DNA of 61,121 bases from a phage (GCA_012008225.1 GCA_012008225.1_4768.1); one strand, 5' to 3'. Positions 28,818 to 56,279 are shown, counted from the first letter of the stretch. Numbers and translations: made by a program. The notes: generated from the letters alone by a model not told the origin.

Positions 28818-29167
28818 AGCGGATCTCCTCTCGAGTATTTACATACAGAACTAACTTTATACGAACAATATAGGACAGGTGAGGTGAGGATATAAAGTGT
28901 CTAGTGACGAGATAATCTACAAACGATGAATCCTTGGCAGAGATCTAAGAGCCGCCCCGCGGCGTTACTATAACGTCCCGTGATCGTCAGTGAGGTGATT
29001 GTTACGTCATGTGACTGTTGCGCGCTCTACTGTAACGTTGTTTATTATTACACGCGTTATTATTTTTAATAGATTAGTATGCTATCTATTACATGACTAT
29101 ACTATAACGTCCAGTATAATTGCGTCTGTTACTATCCACCTGCCCACTATGTGCTGTCTATGTACGT

Positions 29168-50950: not shown

Positions 50951-50974
50951 TCTGTAGACACTTCGGAAACTCAG

Positions 50975-51003
50975 AAGGGGCATTTACTGCCCCTTTGTTA
51001 TCT
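50975..51003 (+). terminator. Rho-independent terminator
   Basis: AAGGGGCA-TTTAC-TGCCCCTT (8 bp stem) followed by TTTGTTATCTT. Confidence 0.7.
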
Positions 51004-51018
51004 TACCCCGAGGTTCAA

Positions 51019-51783
51019 ATGTTTGCACAAGCCATTATCGCCCACCACTGGGCTCAAGCCAAATTTGGAAATCATATGAAAATTATTAATACTCAGGAAC
51101 CTGAAAAGTTAGTTCGTGAACGCGGTATTCTTGATGTACATTCCATTTTTCATACCATTCAAGGTGAAGGCCCATTTTGTGGTCAACCTGCCGTATTCGT
51201 TCGATTAGCTGGTTGTAACCTGCAATGCCCAGGTTGCGATACAAACTATACGTCCAATCGTAAGAAAATGAGTCATAACGATATCTGGCAAGAGATTGTC
51301 CGTGTTACTGGTGAAGCTAAGACTGAATTAGTTGTTATTACTGGTGGCGAACCTTTCCGTCAACCTGAAGTTGTTAATTTTATTAACTATCTTATTGATA
51401 TGAAAGGATACCGTGTACAGGTTGAAACTAACGGAACTATGCCTATCCCGCGTGAACTCAACTATAGTTGTGTGGTAGTATGTAGTCCTAAGGCAGCAAA
51501 GATTCATCCTAGTGTTTCCGCCAGAGCAGACGCTTTCAAATATGTAATGAAAAGCGGAAACGTCAACGAGGAAGATGGATTACCGTTGCAAGCACTGGAT
51601 CACCGTGCAACACCATTTATCGCACGTCCTTCGGTACACTTTAAAGGTGATATCTACCTTCAACCTATGGATGAACAGGATGACAATGCTAATAAAGCAA
51701 ACGCTCAAGCTGTCGTTAAATATGCAATGAAGCATAATTACATCGTGCAATTGCAGATTCACAAGTATTTAGGTGTAGAGTGA
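51019..51783 (+). CDS. queE: 7-carboxy-7-deazaguanine synthase (radical SAM, QueE)
   Basis: TIQGEGPFCGQPAVFVRLAGCNLQCPGCDT radical-SAM cluster motif; ATG at 51019 after GAGG (alternative ATG at 51076; ORF-track start 50995). Confidence 0.85.
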   Translation: MFAQAIIAHHWAQAKFGNHMKIINTQEPEKLVRERGILDVHSIFHTIQGEGPFCGQPAVFVRLAGCNLQCPGCDTNYTSNRKKMSHNDIWQEIVRVTGEAKTELVVITGGEPFRQPEVVNFINYLIDMKGYRVQVETNGTMPIPRELNYSCVVVCSPKAAKIHPSVSARADAFKYVMKSGNVNEEDGLPLQALDHRATPFIARPSVHFKGDIYLQPMDEQDDNANKANAQAVVKYAMKHNYIVQLQIHKYLGVE

Positions 51784-51895
51784 AGTTATACATATTCAGA
51801 AACGCGTGGATGATTGCTGTGGCTAATGACCATTATGCTGGTGACGGTCAACGCGCTAGAAGACATGGTATGTTCAACTGATAAGGTAAATCGTT

Positions 51896-52654
51896 ATGAA
51901 TAAGCATATTCAATTACTCGGTCAAATTGTTCCACAAAATGTGTTAAACCAGTGTCTGTTTGATGAAGACGGATTTGTAAAACATTATGTGACCACAGTT
52001 TCTCAAGCGGCGTCCAATACAGCTCTTGCATCTGTAATTCGAGAAGGATATTTAGTAGATGTTCTGAACGATATCAGTCCCGAACTCACTGTCTTTGTCG
52101 AAGGTATGGATGGAAATGATCTTATGAACTTAAAGACAGTCTATAACACGCATGTAACGCCTCCGCGTAATGCGCTTTACAAATGGCGCATTAGTGCTTC
52201 TGTTAGCGGAACACAGAAAGCGGAAGAAGTGGAAGAGATAGTTAAAAATCATAAAACTTCTTCTGAAAAATTAGCTGGTATCATGGAAGATGTACTTTCG
52301 AGCGTCTTTAAAGTTGATCGTAACAAAGAAGGCGAGCCTGAACTATTCGTTAATGAAGCGTTTGTTAATAAGAATTGCGTCCAGGATATTAAAGCTCCAC
52401 GTCCAAATAAATATATGCGCAAAATCAAAAGTTTTGAATCCCATGACATTAACGGTAGCCCAATTGAAATTGATGTGTGGGTTGACGTGTACGACGTAAT
52501 TAAAGCATTCAATGTAACCAGTGGGCCCATGCAACATGCACTGAAGAAAGTGCTGTGTGCTGGTGAGCGCGGTCATAAAGACTTACTGGAAGACCTCAAC
52601 GATATTATTGCATCCGTTGAGCGTGAAATTGAAATGGTTAAAGAAGGTAAATAA
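51896..52654 (+). CDS. Hypothetical protein embedded in the deazaguanine operon
   Basis: 252 aa; ATG at 51896 after AAGG; no motif I recognise. Confidence 0.6.
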   Translation: MNKHIQLLGQIVPQNVLNQCLFDEDGFVKHYVTTVSQAASNTALASVIREGYLVDVLNDISPELTVFVEGMDGNDLMNLKTVYNTHVTPPRNALYKWRISASVSGTQKAEEVEEIVKNHKTSSEKLAGIMEDVLSSVFKVDRNKEGEPELFVNEAFVNKNCVQDIKAPRPNKYMRKIKSFESHDINGSPIEIDVWVDVYDVIKAFNVTSGPMQHALKKVLCAGERGHKDLLEDLNDIIASVEREIEMVKEGK

Positions 52655-52655
52655 T

Positions 52656-54071
52656 ATGTGCTCCATCTTTGGTGTTATTACTAATGGTCAACCTGAACGT
52701 GAAATTATCCGTAACGACATTGATGATCTTATTAAAGCTAGTATCAACCGTGGTCGTGATGGTCTTGGTGTACGCTTTACGCATGGTGACCACAGTATGC
52801 ACCCGCAACGTATCGTCAGTGTCGGTAAGGAAACATCGCTGGAACGTCTTGTTAAAGTGGGGCGCATTGCATCTCATGCTGGAGCTATTGGTAGCTTCAC
52901 AATGATTGGTAACGCTCGCGCTGAACCGACTACAGAGTGGGTCATTGACAAGAACGAGTGGGACCAACAACCATATCATCTGGATGGTTGGACTATTGTT
53001 CATAACGGTACTATTGCGAACGATAAAGACCTTCGTACCTATGCACTACAGACTAAGATTGATAGTGCTGCAATTGTTGAACAGTTAGCAGAATGCACAC
53101 TTTCAACAGATGAAATGTGTCTGTCTGATTTAAATTACCTTTATAACGTATTCCATGAAGTTGTTCGCAAGTTGAAAGGGAGTTACGCAATCCTTGCAAC
53201 GCATGATTCAATTCCTGGGTATGTGTTTGCAGCATGTAATTACCGTCCAATTTGGATTGGTAAGACTCATACGGGTATGTATTTCGCCAGCCAGGAAGAT
53301 ATGCTACCTACCCGCGCTATTAAGCAAATGCTGAAACCTTACACCTGTAATGTGGTCACATCGACTGGTGTATGCAGTGAGGTTGATCTTATTCCAAATA
53401 AGCAGACTCAACGCGCGTTAGTTGTCGCCAGCGGTGGTATGGACAGCACAGTAGCAGCTCAGATGTGTAAGTCCAATGGTTTGGATGTCACTCTGATTAA
53501 CTTCCAATATGGTTGTCGTGCAGAAACTAATGAGCTGTATGCTATTCGCAAGATTGCGGAGGTGATGGAGGTTCCATTGATTGAATTTCCAATCCCAATC
53601 TACGATAAGAAAGACAGCCCATTATTTGATCAGGATGCTGCAATTGCGGGCGGTGAAGAAGGTGCTGAGTTTGCCCACGAATGGGTTCCAGCTCGTAACC
53701 TTGTAATGCTTTCTGTCGCTACTGCATACGCAGAAGCTAACGGTTTCGACTATATTGTTCTTGGTAACAACTTAGAAGAAGCTGGAGCCTATCCGGACAA
53801 CGAGCCCGAGTTTATTAACCGCTTTAATCAGGTGCTACCATTCGCTGTAGGCGACGGTAAGCGCGTTGAAGTGCTCATGCCGGTAGGTAACTTAATGAAG
53901 CACGAAATTGTCGCTACAGGCCTGCGTTTAGGGGCCCCACTTGAGCATACCTGGAGCTGTTACCGTAACGGGGATTTGCATTGTGGTACTTGTGGCCCTT
54001 GCATGATGCGTCGGACTGCGTTTAATATTAATGACGCACAAGAAGTTATTAAATACGAAAGCGAGGAATAA
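52656..54071 (+). CDS. queC: Glutamine amidotransferase fused to 7-cyano-7-deazaguanine synthase (Gat-QueC)
   Basis: ATG at 52656 (ORF-track frame from 52557); N-terminal MCSIFG (class-II amidotransferase Cys2), PP-loop ALVVASGGMDS, C-terminal WSCYRNGDLHCGTCGPCMMR zinc motif. Confidence 0.85.
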   Translation: MCSIFGVITNGQPEREIIRNDIDDLIKASINRGRDGLGVRFTHGDHSMHPQRIVSVGKETSLERLVKVGRIASHAGAIGSFTMIGNARAEPTTEWVIDKNEWDQQPYHLDGWTIVHNGTIANDKDLRTYALQTKIDSAAIVEQLAECTLSTDEMCLSDLNYLYNVFHEVVRKLKGSYAILATHDSIPGYVFAACNYRPIWIGKTHTGMYFASQEDMLPTRAIKQMLKPYTCNVVTSTGVCSEVDLIPNKQTQRALVVASGGMDSTVAAQMCKSNGLDVTLINFQYGCRAETNELYAIRKIAEVMEVPLIEFPIPIYDKKDSPLFDQDAAIAGGEEGAEFAHEWVPARNLVMLSVATAYAEANGFDYIVLGNNLEEAGAYPDNEPEFINRFNQVLPFAVGDGKRVEVLMPVGNLMKHEIVATGLRLGAPLEHTWSCYRNGDLHCGTCGPCMMRRTAFNINDAQEVIKYESEE

Positions 54072-54072
54072 A

Positions 54073-54609
54073 ATGGGTTACACTGTTATTCGTTCACATG
54101 AGATTTGCGCTGGTCATCGTGTTGTAGGGCATGAAAGTAAGTGTCGCCATCTTCATGGCCACAACTATAAGTTCCATTTTAAAGTTGCACCAAAGAAAAC
54201 ATTGTCGGAAGGCTACGTTAAGTCTGTAAGTGGATTTGCTCTAGAAGGTTCGCTGGACGACGTAGGTCGCGTTATCGACTTTAGTGTGGTTAAAACTACG
54301 CTTTGCCAGTGGTTGGAAGATAACTGGGATCATAAGTTCCTGCACTGGGAAAAAGACTTGCTAATTGACGGGTTGAAAAATTTAGTAAGCCAGGAGTGGA
54401 AGATGTCTTCCAGACCGAGTATAAGTGAGCTTGATGGTGATGCGTTTTTTCATTCATTGGTAGCTCTTCCGTTCAACCCTACCGCCGAAAACCTAGCTGC
54501 ATATATGGTCAACGTAATTGGGCCACAACTGCTTGACGAACATGGTGTTGAACTGGTAGAATGTACCATTGAAGAAACGTCTAAATGTCATGTTAACTAT
54601 TGCAAATAA
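54073..54609 (+). CDS. queD: 6-carboxy-5,6,7,8-tetrahydropterin synthase (QueD)
   Basis: ATG at 54073 after GAGGAA; [13 protein letters not shown] zinc-binding motif. Confidence 0.8.
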
Positions 54610-54635
54610 TTGACCACACAAGGAAACTGCAAACC

Positions 54636-55256
54636 ATGTCGAATGTAAATTATCTGGAATTAAAATCTCACCAAGAACAAATTCAAGCGGCTGTAAGAAA
54701 CCTTCTAGCTATTATTGAAGGGTATGATACTACTGATCTCCGTGAAGGTTTGGTGGAGACTCCAGATCGTGTAGCTAAGGCCTATGCTACATGGTTCGGA
54801 GGTTATTCTGTTGATATCGAAAGACTGTTCAAAACCTTTGAAGATGGTGGGGAAAACTGTAATGAAATGGTGGTCGTCCGCGATATCCCTGTCTACAGTC
54901 ATTGCGAGCATCATATGGCTCCTATTATTGGTCATGCGGTGGTCGGATATGTCCCAAATGGAAAAATTGTTGGTCTCAGTAAGTTATCTCGTGTGGTTGA
55001 TGCTTTTGCTCGACGTTTGCAAGTCCAGGAGCGTCTAACTAACCAAATTGCGGATGCCATTGTGGAACACTTAGACCCGAAAGCTGTTTGTGTCTACATT
55101 GACGCCAAACATATGTGCATGGAGTCGCGCGGTGTTAAGCAGGTATGCGGCAGCTCCACTATTACCAAAGCGTTCCGGGGCGCTACAGAACTGGAGCATG
55201 GTAGCGATATTGGTAAAGAATGGCGCCGGGAGTTCCTTGAAGCGTGTAAAAAGTAA
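54636..55256 (+). CDS. folE: GTP cyclohydrolase I (FolE)
   Basis: ATG at 54636 after AAGGAAA; [46 protein letters not shown] closely matches bacterial FolE. Confidence 0.9.
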
Positions 55257-55291
55257 CTGATTTGCGAATCATACATTATCTTTAATATAAT

Positions 55292-55316
55292 AAGCGCCTA
55301 CGGGCGCTTATTTGTT
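55292..55316 (+). terminator. Rho-independent terminator
   Basis: AAGCGCC-TACG-GGCGCTT (7 bp stem) followed by ATTTGTT. Confidence 0.6.
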
Positions 55317-55325
55317 AGGTGAACA

Positions 55326-56279
55326 ATGCACAGAGAAGATATCAACTATACCTTTCAGATTTATATGGCTGCCGTATATACGAACAGCTATAAACCGGGA
55401 ATGAACCGCTATGTTAAACTCAACGAACAAGAAAAACGTGTTGTCGAAAATATTCCAAATATCCTTGAATCCTGGCACTACGTTGGAAAGCAATCCTATG
55501 TTGATGCCATGCGTGCCGATGGGGCCAAGATATTCCTCGACTCCGGAGCGTTCTCAGCTTACACTTTGGGAGTTACGTTATCAGTTAAAGAATACTGTGA
55601 TTACATCCAACGAAACATAGATATCATCCGTGTGGAGGATGGTTCACTTATGGCGTCTGTACTCGATGGTATCGGAGATCCACTTCAAACGTGGCGCAAC
55701 CAGGAAGAGATGGAAGCCAGAGGTGTAAGACCTTTACCATGCTTCCACGCCGGCGAACCTTTTGAATACCTGGACCATTATGTACGAAATTATGAATATA
55801 TCACTCTCGGTGGTCTTGTTGGAGCGAGTACACAACAACTTCAGGTATGGCTAGACAGGGTATGGGATAAACACCTTGTAGACGGTAGTGGGCGAGCTAA
55901 GATCAAAGTCCATGGCTTTGGTATTACGTCCCGCCCACTTATGGAGCGTTACCCGTGGTACTCCTGTGACTCATCCTCCTGGATTCAATCTGCCGCGTTT
56001 GGTGCTATTGAAACTCCTAAGTGGGGCCCAATGCAGGTATCCGAAAAGTCACCGTCACGCCACTATCAAGGGCAACATATCTGCAATCTTTCAGAAATAG
56101 AACAAAATAACGTTCTGCGCTACTTAGAGGAGTCAGGTTTCACATACGAACGACTTTCAACGATATACGAATCACGCGCTGCATACAATTTATGGGCGTA
56201 TGGTGTGGTCAACGCTATGATTCTTGCTAACCACAATGGGAAGTTCAACGAACGTCTCCAGGATTTATTTGACGAATAA
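55326..56279 (+). CDS. dpdA: DNA-guanine transglycosylase DpdA (tRNA-guanine transglycosylase homolog)
   Basis: TGT-like FLDSGAFSAY motif; AGGTG before ATG; linked to queE/queC/queD/folE. Confidence 0.8.
   Translation: MHREDINYTFQIYMAAVYTNSYKPGMNRYVKLNEQEKRVVENIPNILESWHYVGKQSYVDAMRADGAKIFLDSGAFSAYTLGVTLSVKEYCDYIQRNIDIIRVEDGSLMASVLDGIGDPLQTWRNQEEMEARGVRPLPCFHAGEPFEYLDHYVRNYEYITLGGLVGASTQQLQVWLDRVWDKHLVDGSGRAKIKVHGFGITSRPLMERYPWYSCDSSSWIQSAAFGAIETPKWGPMQVSEKSPSRHYQGQHICNLSEIEQNNVLRYLEESGFTYERLSTIYESRAAYNLWAYGVVNAMILANHNGKFNERLQDLFDE

What the first reader, a model, noticed from the sequence alone, without database searches (positions are those of the whole stretch)
51019..56279. Complete 7-deazaguanine DNA hypermodification cluster (QueE, unknown, Gat-QueC, QueD, FolE, DpdA)
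Seen in sequence: six contiguous plus-strand genes with diagnostic motifs for radical-SAM QueE, an amidotransferase-QueC fusion, QueD, GTP cyclohydrolase I and a tRNA-guanine-transglycosylase homolog. Established knowledge: this gene set lets phages build preQ0 from GTP and have DpdA exchange it into DNA in place of guanine. Inference: the amidotransferase fusion predicts the amidated base archaeosine (dG+), as reported for Escherichia phage 9g, so the virion DNA is probably hypermodified and restriction-resistant. Of everything I can place, this system matters most in the window.
Basis: partly seen in the sequence, partly recalled or inferred. Interest (0 to 1): 0.8.

Follow-up and report, generated by a model that had tools for sequence, protein, structure and literature searches.

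The report
Known phage archaeosine DNA-modification gene cluster
This is the well-studied gene set that phage 9g and its relatives use to swap about a quarter of the guanines in their DNA for the modified base archaeosine, which blocks many bacterial restriction enzymes; it is real and intact here, but it is already known.

Summary
Six contiguous plus-strand genes occupy 51019-56279: QueE, an unknown ORF, Gat-QueC, QueD, FolE and DpdA. The window is a 9g-like phage (genus Nonagvirus). The region is 90-93% identical in DNA to HdSG1, JenP2 and 9g, in the same gene order. Protein identity to 9g is DpdA 99.7%, QueE 96.5%, Gat-QueC 94.7%, QueD 84%, FolE 84% and the unknown ORF 81%. All expected catalytic motifs are present.

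For 9g the pathway has been shown experimentally. Its folE, queD and queE complement E. coli mutants. dpdA alone puts dPreQ0 into plasmids.

Three caveats apply:
- DpdA gets no significant Pfam, NCBIfam or PDB-sequence match. Its assignment rests on PHROG 887, near-identity to 9g DpdA, and weak alignments that place the catalytic aspartates correctly.
- The unknown ORF is probably not a core pathway enzyme. Its C-terminal domain occurs in 767 phage records, most outside the 9g-related group, and other Gat-QueC phages lack the ORF.
- Whether amidation comes before or after insertion into DNA is unresolved.

Novelty: already known. Interest: low.

The parts
50974..50996 (+). Terminator-like GC-rich hairpin followed by a T run, between the upstream gp09-like gene and QueE. 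It marks the 5' edge of the cluster.
   Evidence: Consensus scan; sequence read. This is a pattern match only.
51019..51783 (+). QueE, a radical-SAM 7-carboxy-7-deazaguanine (CDG) synthase, 254 aa
   Evidence: Pfam Radical_SAM 8.5e-12. Five NCBIfam QueE models with E from 1e-26 to 1e-22, all below their cut-offs. PHROG 2076 at 1.9e-69. CNLQCPGC motif at residue 66. 96.5% identical to 9g gp08, which complements E. coli delta-queE (PMC6884629).
51780..51881 (+). 33-codon micro-ORF whose GTG start overlaps the QueE stop. It matches ChristophMerian bas19_0034. Whether it is a real gene is uncertain.
   Evidence: Translations agree at 30 of 33 residues. The spacer is 94.6% identical to ChristophMerian and partly deleted in 9g.
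51896..52654 (+). Unknown two-domain protein, 252 aa, the homolog of 9g gp07. The N-terminal part (about residues 1-165) is lineage-specific. The C-terminal part (about residues 170-250) is a widespread phage domain with the motif NKYxRxI...VDVYDV...QHxxKKxLxxGxRGHKD...DLxDI..S..R..E.
   Evidence: No Pfam, NCBIfam or PDB hit. PHROG 18443, unknown function, 4.2e-154. Alignment A1 shows 20 invariant residues, all in the C-terminal part. AF2 mean pLDDT 67.5, with the C-domain mostly at 83-93. Foldseek against PDB found nothing below E 0.2.
52656..53306 (+). Gat-QueC, N-terminal class-II (Ntn) glutamine amidotransferase domain, residues 1-217
   Evidence: GATase_7 1.4e-06. GlmS N-terminal model 6.4e-11. 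Starts with Met-Cys; GNAR at residue 85, HNG at 116, DSA at 136.
53412..54071 (+). Gat-QueC, C-terminal QueC domain: an ATP-dependent 7-cyano-7-deazaguanine synthase, residues 253-471
   Evidence: Pfam QueC 1.7e-55. TIGR00364 1.5e-43. PP-loop SGGMDS at residue 259 and Cys cluster C435...CGTCGPC at 443. The whole protein is 94.7% identical to 9g gp06.
54073..54609 (+). QueD, 6-carboxy-5,6,7,8-tetrahydropterin synthase, 178 aa
   Evidence: Pfam PTPS 1.4e-21. TIGR03367 1e-17. PHROG 2389 at 5.8e-55. CRHLHGH motif. 84.2% identical to 9g gp05.
54636..55256 (+). FolE, GTP cyclohydrolase I, 206 aa
   Evidence: Pfam 4.6e-63. TIGR00063 at 194 bits, above the 181.6 cut-off. CEHH and HMCMESRG motifs. 83.6% identical to 9g gp04, with a different N-terminus.
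55262..55315 (+). Promoter-like site (TTGCGA, 18 nt, TATAAT) followed by a short GC hairpin and a T-rich tail, in the FolE-DpdA spacer
   Evidence: for the promoter-like match, 10 of 12 positions. The hairpin AAGCGCC-TAC-GGGCGCTT was read by eye. The region has fewer promoter-like matches (10) than its shuffles (mean 14.5), so this is not evidence of function.
55326..56279 (+). DpdA (DpdA1 subfamily), a DNA guanine/7-deazaguanine transglycosylase, 317 aa
   Evidence: 316 of 317 residues identical to 9g gp03, which inserts dPreQ0 into DNA in E. coli. PHROG 887 at 2e-98. D72 in LDSGAF and D215 are invariant or near-invariant in 54 diverse homologs. The family profile's best PDB hit is bacterial DpdA 7ui4, which aligns D215 with the nucleophile Asp256, but only at E 0.21.

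Best explanation
This is a phage-encoded, self-sufficient pathway that replaces part of the guanines in the phage's own double-stranded DNA with 2'-deoxyarchaeosine (dG+).

Steps:
1. FolE opens GTP to dihydroneopterin triphosphate.
2. QueD converts that to 6-carboxy-tetrahydropterin.
3. The radical-SAM enzyme QueE contracts the ring to 7-carboxy-7-deazaguanine.
4. The QueC half of Gat-QueC uses ATP and ammonia to make 7-cyano-7-deazaguanine (preQ0).
5. DpdA, a TIM-barrel relative of tRNA-guanine transglycosylase, excises a guanine base from duplex DNA after replication. It does so through a covalent aspartyl-sugar intermediate (D215 as nucleophile, D72 as acid/base) and inserts the deazaguanine base.
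6. The Cys2 glutaminase half of Gat-QueC supplies ammonia that turns the nitrile into the formamidine of archaeosine.

With modest preference (about 55:45) I think preQ0 is inserted first and amidated on the DNA. The reasons are that DpdA alone inserts preQ0 and that archaeal amidotransferases act on preQ0-tRNA.

The outcome is virion DNA with roughly a quarter of G as dG+, which blocks many Type II restriction enzymes.

Shown experimentally for the 9g orthologs: steps 1-3 by complementation, DpdA-dependent dPreQ0 insertion, dG+ dependent on DpdA plus Gat-QueC, and restriction resistance. Inferred for this window: everything, by orthology and intact motifs. The catalytic roles of D72 and D215 and the order of the last two steps are also inferred. 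The embedded unknown ORF and the 33-codon micro-ORF are treated as non-core passengers.
For: The region is orthologous and syntenic with 9g, JenP2, HdSG1 and ChristophMerian at 90-93% DNA identity over 93-100% of the query in 18 records. Annotated gene orders match. Per-protein identity to 9g is 81-99.7%, with the same lengths.

All catalytic motifs are intact.

Experimental basis in 9g: PMC6884629, PMC5567051, and the summary in PMC10516641.

DpdA active site: D72, D114, H141 and F198 are at least 90% conserved, and H196 and D215 are invariant, across 54 homologs down to 31% identity. The weak profile hit to bacterial DpdA 7ui4 aligns F198 with Leu236 and D215 with Asp256, the nucleophile. 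hhalign places FLDSGAF on E. coli Tgt TDSGGF. In several homologs an intein sits two residues upstream of D215, which is typical of active-site positions.

DpdA is the most conserved cluster protein across diverged Gat-QueC phages: 88-93%, against 59-74% for the other enzymes.
Against: Nothing in the sequence can show that the DNA is actually modified.

QueE, QueD and QueC score below NCBIfam's equivalog cut-offs.

FolE and QueD are only about 84% identical to the tested 9g proteins.

The order of amidation and insertion is explicitly unknown in the literature. The 30- to 500-fold higher modification level when Gat-QueC is present could favour the G+ free base as the preferred DpdA substrate.
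Confidence: 0.9

Rival explanations
1. Same pathway, but in the other order. Gat-QueC makes the free archaeosine base (G+) from CDG through preQ0 without releasing it, and DpdA inserts G+ directly into DNA. preQ0 insertion would then be a side activity.
For: With DpdA alone only 0.03-0.3% of G becomes dPreQ0. With Gat-QueC, 9-18% becomes dG+. In a delta-queC host only dG+ is detected, and the phage gat-queC does not restore queuosine, which suggests preQ0 is not released (PMC6884629). Fusing a glutaminase to QueC fits an ammonia tunnel serving a single active site (inference).
Against: DpdA1 demonstrably accepts preQ0. The archaeal enzymes ArcS, Gat-QueC and QueF-L are described as acting after preQ0 is inserted into tRNA. 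The authors themselves say the order is unknown. Nothing computed here discriminates between the two orders.
Confidence: 0.4
2. The cluster yields dPreQ0 (or dADG) rather than dG+ in this particular phage. The Gat domain would only feed ammonia to the QueC reaction.
For: The related Seuratvirus phages (CAjan, Seurat) with plain QueC carry dPreQ0. QueC chemistry itself needs ammonia (established knowledge of QueC).
Against: Gat-QueC here is 94.7% identical to the 9g enzyme that gives dG+. It keeps Cys2, HNG, the PP-loop and the Cys cluster. In 9g, dG+ is the modification reported in virion DNA.
Confidence: 0.05
3. The genes modify tRNA (queuosine- or archaeosine-like) to tune translation during infection, not DNA.
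For: This was the historical reading of phage 'queuosine' genes. Database names such as 'queuine tRNA-ribosyltransferase' persist.
Against: 9g dpdA does not complement E. coli delta-tgt and does modify plasmid DNA, and dG+ is measured in 9g DNA. The window's DpdA differs from it by one residue. No queA, queG or queH is in the cluster.
Confidence: 0.02
4. The unknown ORF (51896-52654) is a genuine seventh component. It would be an accessory factor that couples QueE to Gat-QueC or raises or targets DpdA activity.
For: In four diverged Gat-QueC contigs (Gat-QueC 61-68% identical) a full-length homolog always sits directly between QueE and Gat-QueC, with abutting start and stop codons, while other junctions of the cluster vary. 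In the window its stop is 1 nt from the Gat-QueC start. A protein with the same C-domain lies inside the Seuratvirus cluster. The N-part is seen only next to Gat-QueC.
Against: dpdA plus gat-queC alone give 9-18% dG+ in E. coli. NP1 has QueE immediately followed by Gat-QueC. Vid5 has an unrelated 63-aa ORF there, and K9PH25C2 has only a truncated N-part. The C-domain is in 767 phage records, including Jerseyvirus, Rtp-like and Acinetobacter phages, and in contigs with no deazaguanine genes nearby. It is the least conserved protein of the cluster (44-47%). It has no fold or family match.
Confidence: 0.12

Closest known systems
Enterobacteria phage 9g dG+ cluster (gp08 QueE, gp07 hypothetical, gp06 Gat-QueC, gp05 QueD, gp04 FolE, gp03 DpdA; genus Nonagvirus, Queuovirinae)
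   Same: Identical gene content and order, the same flanking genes (helicase and gp09-like upstream, sliding clamp and DNA polymerase downstream), and the same protein lengths. DpdA matches at 316 of 317 residues, QueE at 96.5%, Gat-QueC at 94.7%.
   Different: FolE, QueD and the unknown ORF are only 81-84% identical. The FolE N-terminus differs. The QueE-to-unknown spacer is 112 nt and carries a 33-codon ORF shared with ChristophMerian but partly deleted in 9g. None of these differences touches a catalytic motif.
Seuratvirus dPreQ0 cluster (Escherichia phages CAjan, Seurat)
   Same: FolE, QueD, QueE and DpdA are embedded between helicase and clamp/polymerase. QueD-FolE are similar at the DNA level, 76-81%. 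A protein with the same C-terminal domain lies inside the cluster.
   Different: It has plain QueC without the amidotransferase, so the base is dPreQ0 rather than dG+. In the related contig L006 the ORF just after QueC has a weak Pfam Vut_1 hit. The C-domain protein has a different N-part and sits before QueD.
Bacterial Dpd restriction-modification system (Salmonella Montevideo DpdA/DpdB/DpdC; DpdA structure 7UI4)
   Same: Guanine-for-preQ0 exchange in duplex DNA by a TGT-like TIM-barrel enzyme with an aspartate nucleophile and an aspartate acid/base (PMC10164549). The window's D215 and D72 align with these residues.
   Different: Bacterial DpdA needs the ATPase DpdB, and its abstract names dPreQ0 and dADG as the products (PMC10164549). 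It modifies less than 0.1% of G (PMC10516641). Sequence similarity to the phage DpdA1 family is at the noise level (E 0.21). No DpdB or DpdC was seen in the window's cluster.
[quoted passage not shown]
   Same: The same preQ0 supply route, and the same Gat-QueC fusion architecture used to reach the formamidine base.
   Different: The substrate is tRNA position 15, not DNA. The transglycosylase is arcTGT.

Membership tests
9g-type phage dG+ DNA-modification cluster | Complete GTP-to-preQ0 enzyme set (FolE, QueD, QueE, QueC domain), each with intact catalytic motifs | tested here: met
   Pfam hits above gathering score for all four. Motifs CEHH/HxCxxxRG, CxxxHGH, CxxxCxxC, and SGGxDS plus the Cys cluster are present. 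All are full length relative to 9g.
9g-type phage dG+ DNA-modification cluster | QueC fused to an N-terminal class-II glutamine amidotransferase with Cys as the first residue after Met | tested here: met
   One 471-aa ORF starting MCSIFG. GATase_7 and GlmS-N hits lie upstream of the QueC domain. HNG and DSA motifs are present.
9g-type phage dG+ DNA-modification cluster | DpdA1-type DNA transglycosylase encoded in the same cluster | tested here: met
   99.7% identical to 9g DpdA. PHROG 887 at 2e-98. 2718 homologs in the word-indexed search and 6262 cluster representatives.
9g-type phage dG+ DNA-modification cluster | dG+ actually present in virion DNA, and restriction resistance | not testable with these tools
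   Needs LC-MS/MS and restriction digests. It is known for 9g only.
TGT/DpdA transglycosylase superfamily (for the DpdA gene) | Significant match to a TGT or DpdA profile (Pfam TGT, PF23859 DpdA, NCBIfam) | tested here: not met
   The window protein has no hit. Only 1 of 54 family members touches PF23859, at E 0.042. PDB sequence searches gave E of at least 0.21.
TGT/DpdA transglycosylase superfamily (for the DpdA gene) | TIM-barrel fold resembling TGT | tested here: inconclusive
TGT/DpdA transglycosylase superfamily (for the DpdA gene) | Conserved aspartate pair (acid/base in a DSGxF motif; nucleophile) and base-stacking hydrophobic residues | tested here: met
   D72 and F76 in LDSGAF have the same D-x3-F spacing as Asp95 and Phe99 of bacterial DpdA and as TDSGGF of E. 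coli Tgt. D215 is invariant and F198 near-invariant, and they align with Asp256 and Leu236 of 7ui4. The 20-residue tag offset is inferred from both residues matching. The underlying alignments are weak.
QueE (7-carboxy-7-deazaguanine synthase) | Score above the NCBIfam QueE equivalog cut-off | tested here: not met
   Best score is 93.5 bits against cut-offs of 200-300. The assignment therefore rests on QueE models being the top five hits, on PHROG 2076, and on 96.5% identity to the 9g QueE that complements delta-queE.

The most novel reading that the evidence does not exclude
The embedded 252-aa ORF (51896-52654) is not a passenger. It would be a lineage-specific accessory subunit of the dG+ machinery. 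Its N-terminal part is found only directly upstream of Gat-QueC, and its strongly conserved C-terminal domain (20 invariant residues) is shared by hundreds of otherwise unrelated phages and would be a new DNA- or nucleotide-handling module. If so, it could explain why natural 9g reaches 25-27% dG+ when the two-gene reconstitution gives 9-18%. It could also contribute to the still-unknown target motif.
Probability: 0.1. Interest if true: 0.45.

Novelty: already known. Interest (0 to 1): 0.12.

Why it matters
For this window it settles the annotation. The phage is a Nonagvirus whose DNA should be expected to carry dG+ at roughly a quarter of its guanines.

Practical consequences:
- Many restriction enzymes will not cut the DNA, so cloning and restriction mapping will be affected.
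That is expectation, not something tested here.
- The phage should evade many host Type II restriction systems.
- It should be vulnerable to defences that recognise 7-deazaguanines. The Dag1 glycosylase degrades 9g DNA in vitro (bioRxiv 10.1101/2025.10.29.685425).

It adds no new biology beyond another member of a characterised genus. The open questions it touches are already posed for 9g: the order of amidation versus insertion, the DpdA target motif, and the role of the gp07-like ORF.

Tried and rejected

(2) Function of the unknown ORF. There was no Pfam hit even at E 5 across 28 homologs, and no NCBIfam or PDB hit. The AF2 model had no Foldseek match in PDB. From memory, I thought the C-domain resembled Pfam DUF3310. 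No such hit appeared, so I drop that idea.

(3) The hypothesis that the unknown ORF is an obligate partner of Gat-QueC. This was weakened by NP1, Vid5 and K9PH25C2, by the wide distribution of the C-domain, and by three contexts without deazaguanine genes.

(4) The third pac-like repeat that Tsai et al. report inside the 9g tgt gene. No match with up to 2 mismatches to the 12-bp core was found in the window's dpdA.

(5) Promoter and terminator scans. Matches in the cluster are no more frequent than in shuffles, so no operon structure is claimed.

Full report
**What is there**

The ORF list for 48-59 kb shows six long, non-overlapping plus-strand ORFs between 50995 and 56279. They lie between a superfamily-II helicase plus two hypothetical genes upstream, and a sliding clamp and DNA polymerase downstream. 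I refined the starts by comparison with annotated relatives:

| Gene | Coordinates | Length |
|---|---|---|
| QueE | 51019-51783 | 254 aa |
| unknown | 51896-52654 | 252 aa |
| Gat-QueC | 52656-54071 | 471 aa, starts MCSIFG |
| QueD | 54073-54609 | 178 aa |
| FolE | 54636-55256 | 206 aa |
| DpdA | 55326-56279 | 317 aa |

The unknown ORF, Gat-QueC and QueD are separated by single nucleotides.

**Is it more than chance?**

Yes. Four products hit their Pfam families above the gathering score: Radical_SAM 8.5e-12, QueC 1.7e-55 with GATase_7 1.4e-06 upstream of it, PTPS 1.4e-21, and GTP_cyclohydroI 4.6e-63.

In NCBIfam the five best hits for the first ORF are all QueE models, with E-values from 1e-26 to 1e-22. 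FolE passes its equivalog cut-off. QueC misses its cut-off by 1.6 bits, and QueD and QueE are below theirs.

PHROGs gives strong hits for five products: QueE 1.9e-69, Gat-QueC 2.4e-284, QueD 5.8e-55, FolE 1.9e-77 and DpdA 2e-98.

The catalytic motifs are all present:
- QueE: CNLQCPGC
- Gat-QueC: Cys2, GNAR, HNG, DSA, SGGMDS and C-x7-CGTCGPC
- QueD: CRHLHGH
- FolE: CEHH and HMCMESRG

**Where the window comes from**

Megablast of the region finds 18 phage records covering 93-100% of it at 90-93% identity. All are Nonagvirus: HdSG1, JenP2, ESCO3, SP8, 9g, JenK1, ChristophMerian, FritzHoffmann, BRET and SE1. The rest of the window behaves the same way, at 92-96% identity. The published 9g pac-site core occurs twice at 28953-28985. 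The window is therefore a 9g-like phage genome that is not identical to any deposited record.

Protein identities to 9g:

| Protein | Identity to 9g |
|---|---|
| DpdA | 316/317 |
| QueE | 96.5% |
| Gat-QueC | 94.7% |
| QueD | 84.2% |
| FolE | 83.6% |
| unknown | 81.0% (95.6% to ChristophMerian) |

**What is known about the orthologs**

In 9g, folE, queD and queE each restore queuosine in the matching E. coli mutant. dpdA alone gives dPreQ0 at 0.03-0.3% of G in plasmids. dpdA plus gat-queC gives dG+ at 9-18% of G, also in a delta-queC host but not in delta-queD. gat-queC alone gives nothing (PMC6884629).

9g virion DNA has dG+ at 25-27% of G and resists about 71% of more than 200 Type II enzymes, including every E. 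coli-derived enzyme tested (PMC5567051). The 9g enzyme is classed as DpdA1 (PMC10516641). Replacing QueC by Gat-QueC is the published predictor of dG+ over dPreQ0.

**DpdA, the weak point of an HMM-only check**

The window's DpdA has no hit in Pfam, NCBIfam or PDB sequences. Pfam now has a DpdA family (PF23859), but only 1 of 54 DpdA1 homologs touches it, at E 0.042.

I tried to establish the link independently. A full-library profile search shows a large family of 6262 cluster representatives. In a 54-sequence alignment reaching down to 31% identity, P138, H196, S213, D215 and R284 are invariant. D72-S73-G74-A75, D114, H141 and F198 are at least 90% conserved.

That profile's best PDB match is the bacterial DNA preQ0 insertase DpdA (7ui4), though only at E 0.21. 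The alignment puts F198 on Leu236 and D215 on Asp256. Asp256 is the proposed nucleophile, Asp95 the acid/base, and Phe99 and Leu236 stack the base (PMC10164549). The 20-residue numbering offset is my inference from both residues matching and from the retained His-tag.

LDSGAF has the same D-x3-F spacing as Asp95 and Phe99, and hhalign places it on TDSGGF of E. coli Tgt, at low probability.

Taken together, fold membership is plausible but not proven here. The functional assignment stands on the one-residue difference from the tested 9g protein.

**The 'unknown' gene**

It has no Pfam, NCBIfam or PDB match and no structural match. It has two parts.

The C-terminal part, about 80 residues, is very conserved. 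There are 20 invariant residues across 28 homologs, in the motif NKYxRxI...VDVYDV...QHxxKKxLxxGxRGHKD...DLxDI..S..R. It occurs in 767 phage records, all annotated as hypothetical. These include Jerseyvirus, Rtp-like and Acinetobacter phages and contigs with no deazaguanine genes nearby.

The N-terminal part is found by tblastn only in 18 Nonagvirus records.

Evidence for a functional link:
- In four diverged Gat-QueC contigs the full-length homolog always lies directly between QueE and Gat-QueC, with abutting codons, while other junctions vary.
- Seuratvirus-type clusters carry a protein with the same C-domain before QueD.

Evidence against:
- Two genes suffice for dG+ in E. coli.
- NP1 has QueE immediately followed by Gat-QueC. 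Vid5 has an unrelated 63-aa ORF there. K9PH25C2 keeps only a truncated N-part.
- It is the fastest-evolving protein of the cluster, 44-47% against 88-93% for DpdA.

I therefore treat it as a non-core, lineage-specific ORF. I put about 10% on it being a real accessory factor.

**Mechanism**

GTP is converted by FolE to H2NTP, by QueD to CPH4, by QueE to CDG, and by the QueC domain (with ATP and ammonia) to preQ0. DpdA then exchanges preQ0 for guanine in duplex DNA after replication, and the nitrile is amidated to the formamidine using glutamine-derived ammonia from the Gat domain.

Which of the last two steps comes first is unknown. I lean slightly towards insertion followed by amidation. The large rise in modification level when Gat-QueC is present keeps the opposite order credible.

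**Verdict**

The system is already known from phage 9g and its genus. Interest is low. The value of the finding lies in annotation and in warning about modified DNA.

Noticed in passing
window 51780-51881 (+): A 33-codon ORF (VKLYIFRNAWMIAVANDHYAGDGQRARRHGMFN) whose GTG start overlaps the QueE stop. It matches ChristophMerian's annotated bas19_0034 at 30 of 33 residues. The stretch is partly deleted in 9g.
   Followed up: partly
window 52400-52654 (C-terminal ~80 aa of the unknown ORF): This is a sharply conserved small domain with 20 invariant residues. It is present in 767 phage records across Jerseyvirus, Rtp-like, Acinetobacter, Vibrio and other phages. All are annotated hypothetical, with no Pfam family and no PDB fold match. 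It appears to be a widespread, uncharacterised phage domain.
   Followed up: partly
homologs P0205, P0210, P0217, P0266 (not in the window); insertion point corresponds to window DpdA residues 212/213: Several DpdA1 homologs of about 600-640 aa carry an insertion of about 310 aa that begins with Cys (CMTEEDH.VLT) and ends in VTGN, followed by SVDSSSW. This is the signature of an intein. It sits two residues upstream of the invariant aspartate D215. Pfam gave no hit for these proteins.
   Followed up: partly
window 51019-56279 compared with loci L003, L011, L012, L013: Conservation across the cluster is very uneven. DpdA is 88-93% identical in lineages where Gat-QueC is 61-68%, QueE 66-70% and FolE 59-63%. 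Within Nonagvirus, DpdA is 99.7% identical to 9g while FolE and QueD are about 84%.
   Followed up: partly
window 54063-55250 (QueD-FolE): This is the only part of the cluster with DNA-level matches to Seuratvirus phages (76-81%). The window's FolE is closer to a Seuratvirus-like contig (78%) than to FolE of other Gat-QueC lineages (59-63%). That suggests the queD-folE module is exchanged between genera.
   Followed up: no
whole window, both strands: G followed by A accounts for 26.9% of all G, and GA plus the first G of GGC for 30.7%. These are close to the 25-27% dG+ measured in 9g and the 32% dPreQ0 measured in CAjan. The published 9g digests fit a GA target in part: EcoRI, BamHI, EcoRV, BseRI and EarI are resistant, and RsaI and Hpy166II cut. 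But TaqI (TCGA) cuts and HindIII (AAGCTT) is resistant. This may be coincidence.
   Followed up: no
window 28953-28985 (-): Two copies of the 9g pac-site core SRYCRCGGGRCG lie 21 bp apart, against 0.07 expected by chance. The third, cryptic copy reported inside the 9g tgt gene was not found in the window's dpdA with up to 2 mismatches.
   Followed up: partly
window 1-61121: GC skew is negative from 1 to about 32000 and positive from about 32000 to the end. That would fit two oppositely oriented gene blocks; I checked gene strands only for the plus-strand replication and modification genes from about 47 kb onward.
   Followed up: no
locus L017 4687-5025 (Klebsiella phage K9PH25C2): Between QueE and Gat-QueC this phage has a 112-aa ORF homologous only to the N-terminal part of the window's unknown protein. 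It lacks the C-terminal domain and overlaps the Gat-QueC start. It could be a natural truncation or a frameshift.
   Followed up: no
window 50974-50996 and 55262-55315 (+): There is a terminator-like hairpin just upstream of QueE. In the FolE-DpdA spacer there is a promoter-like TTGCGA-18-TATAAT followed by a small GC hairpin. DpdA may therefore be transcribed separately. These are pattern matches only.
   Followed up: no
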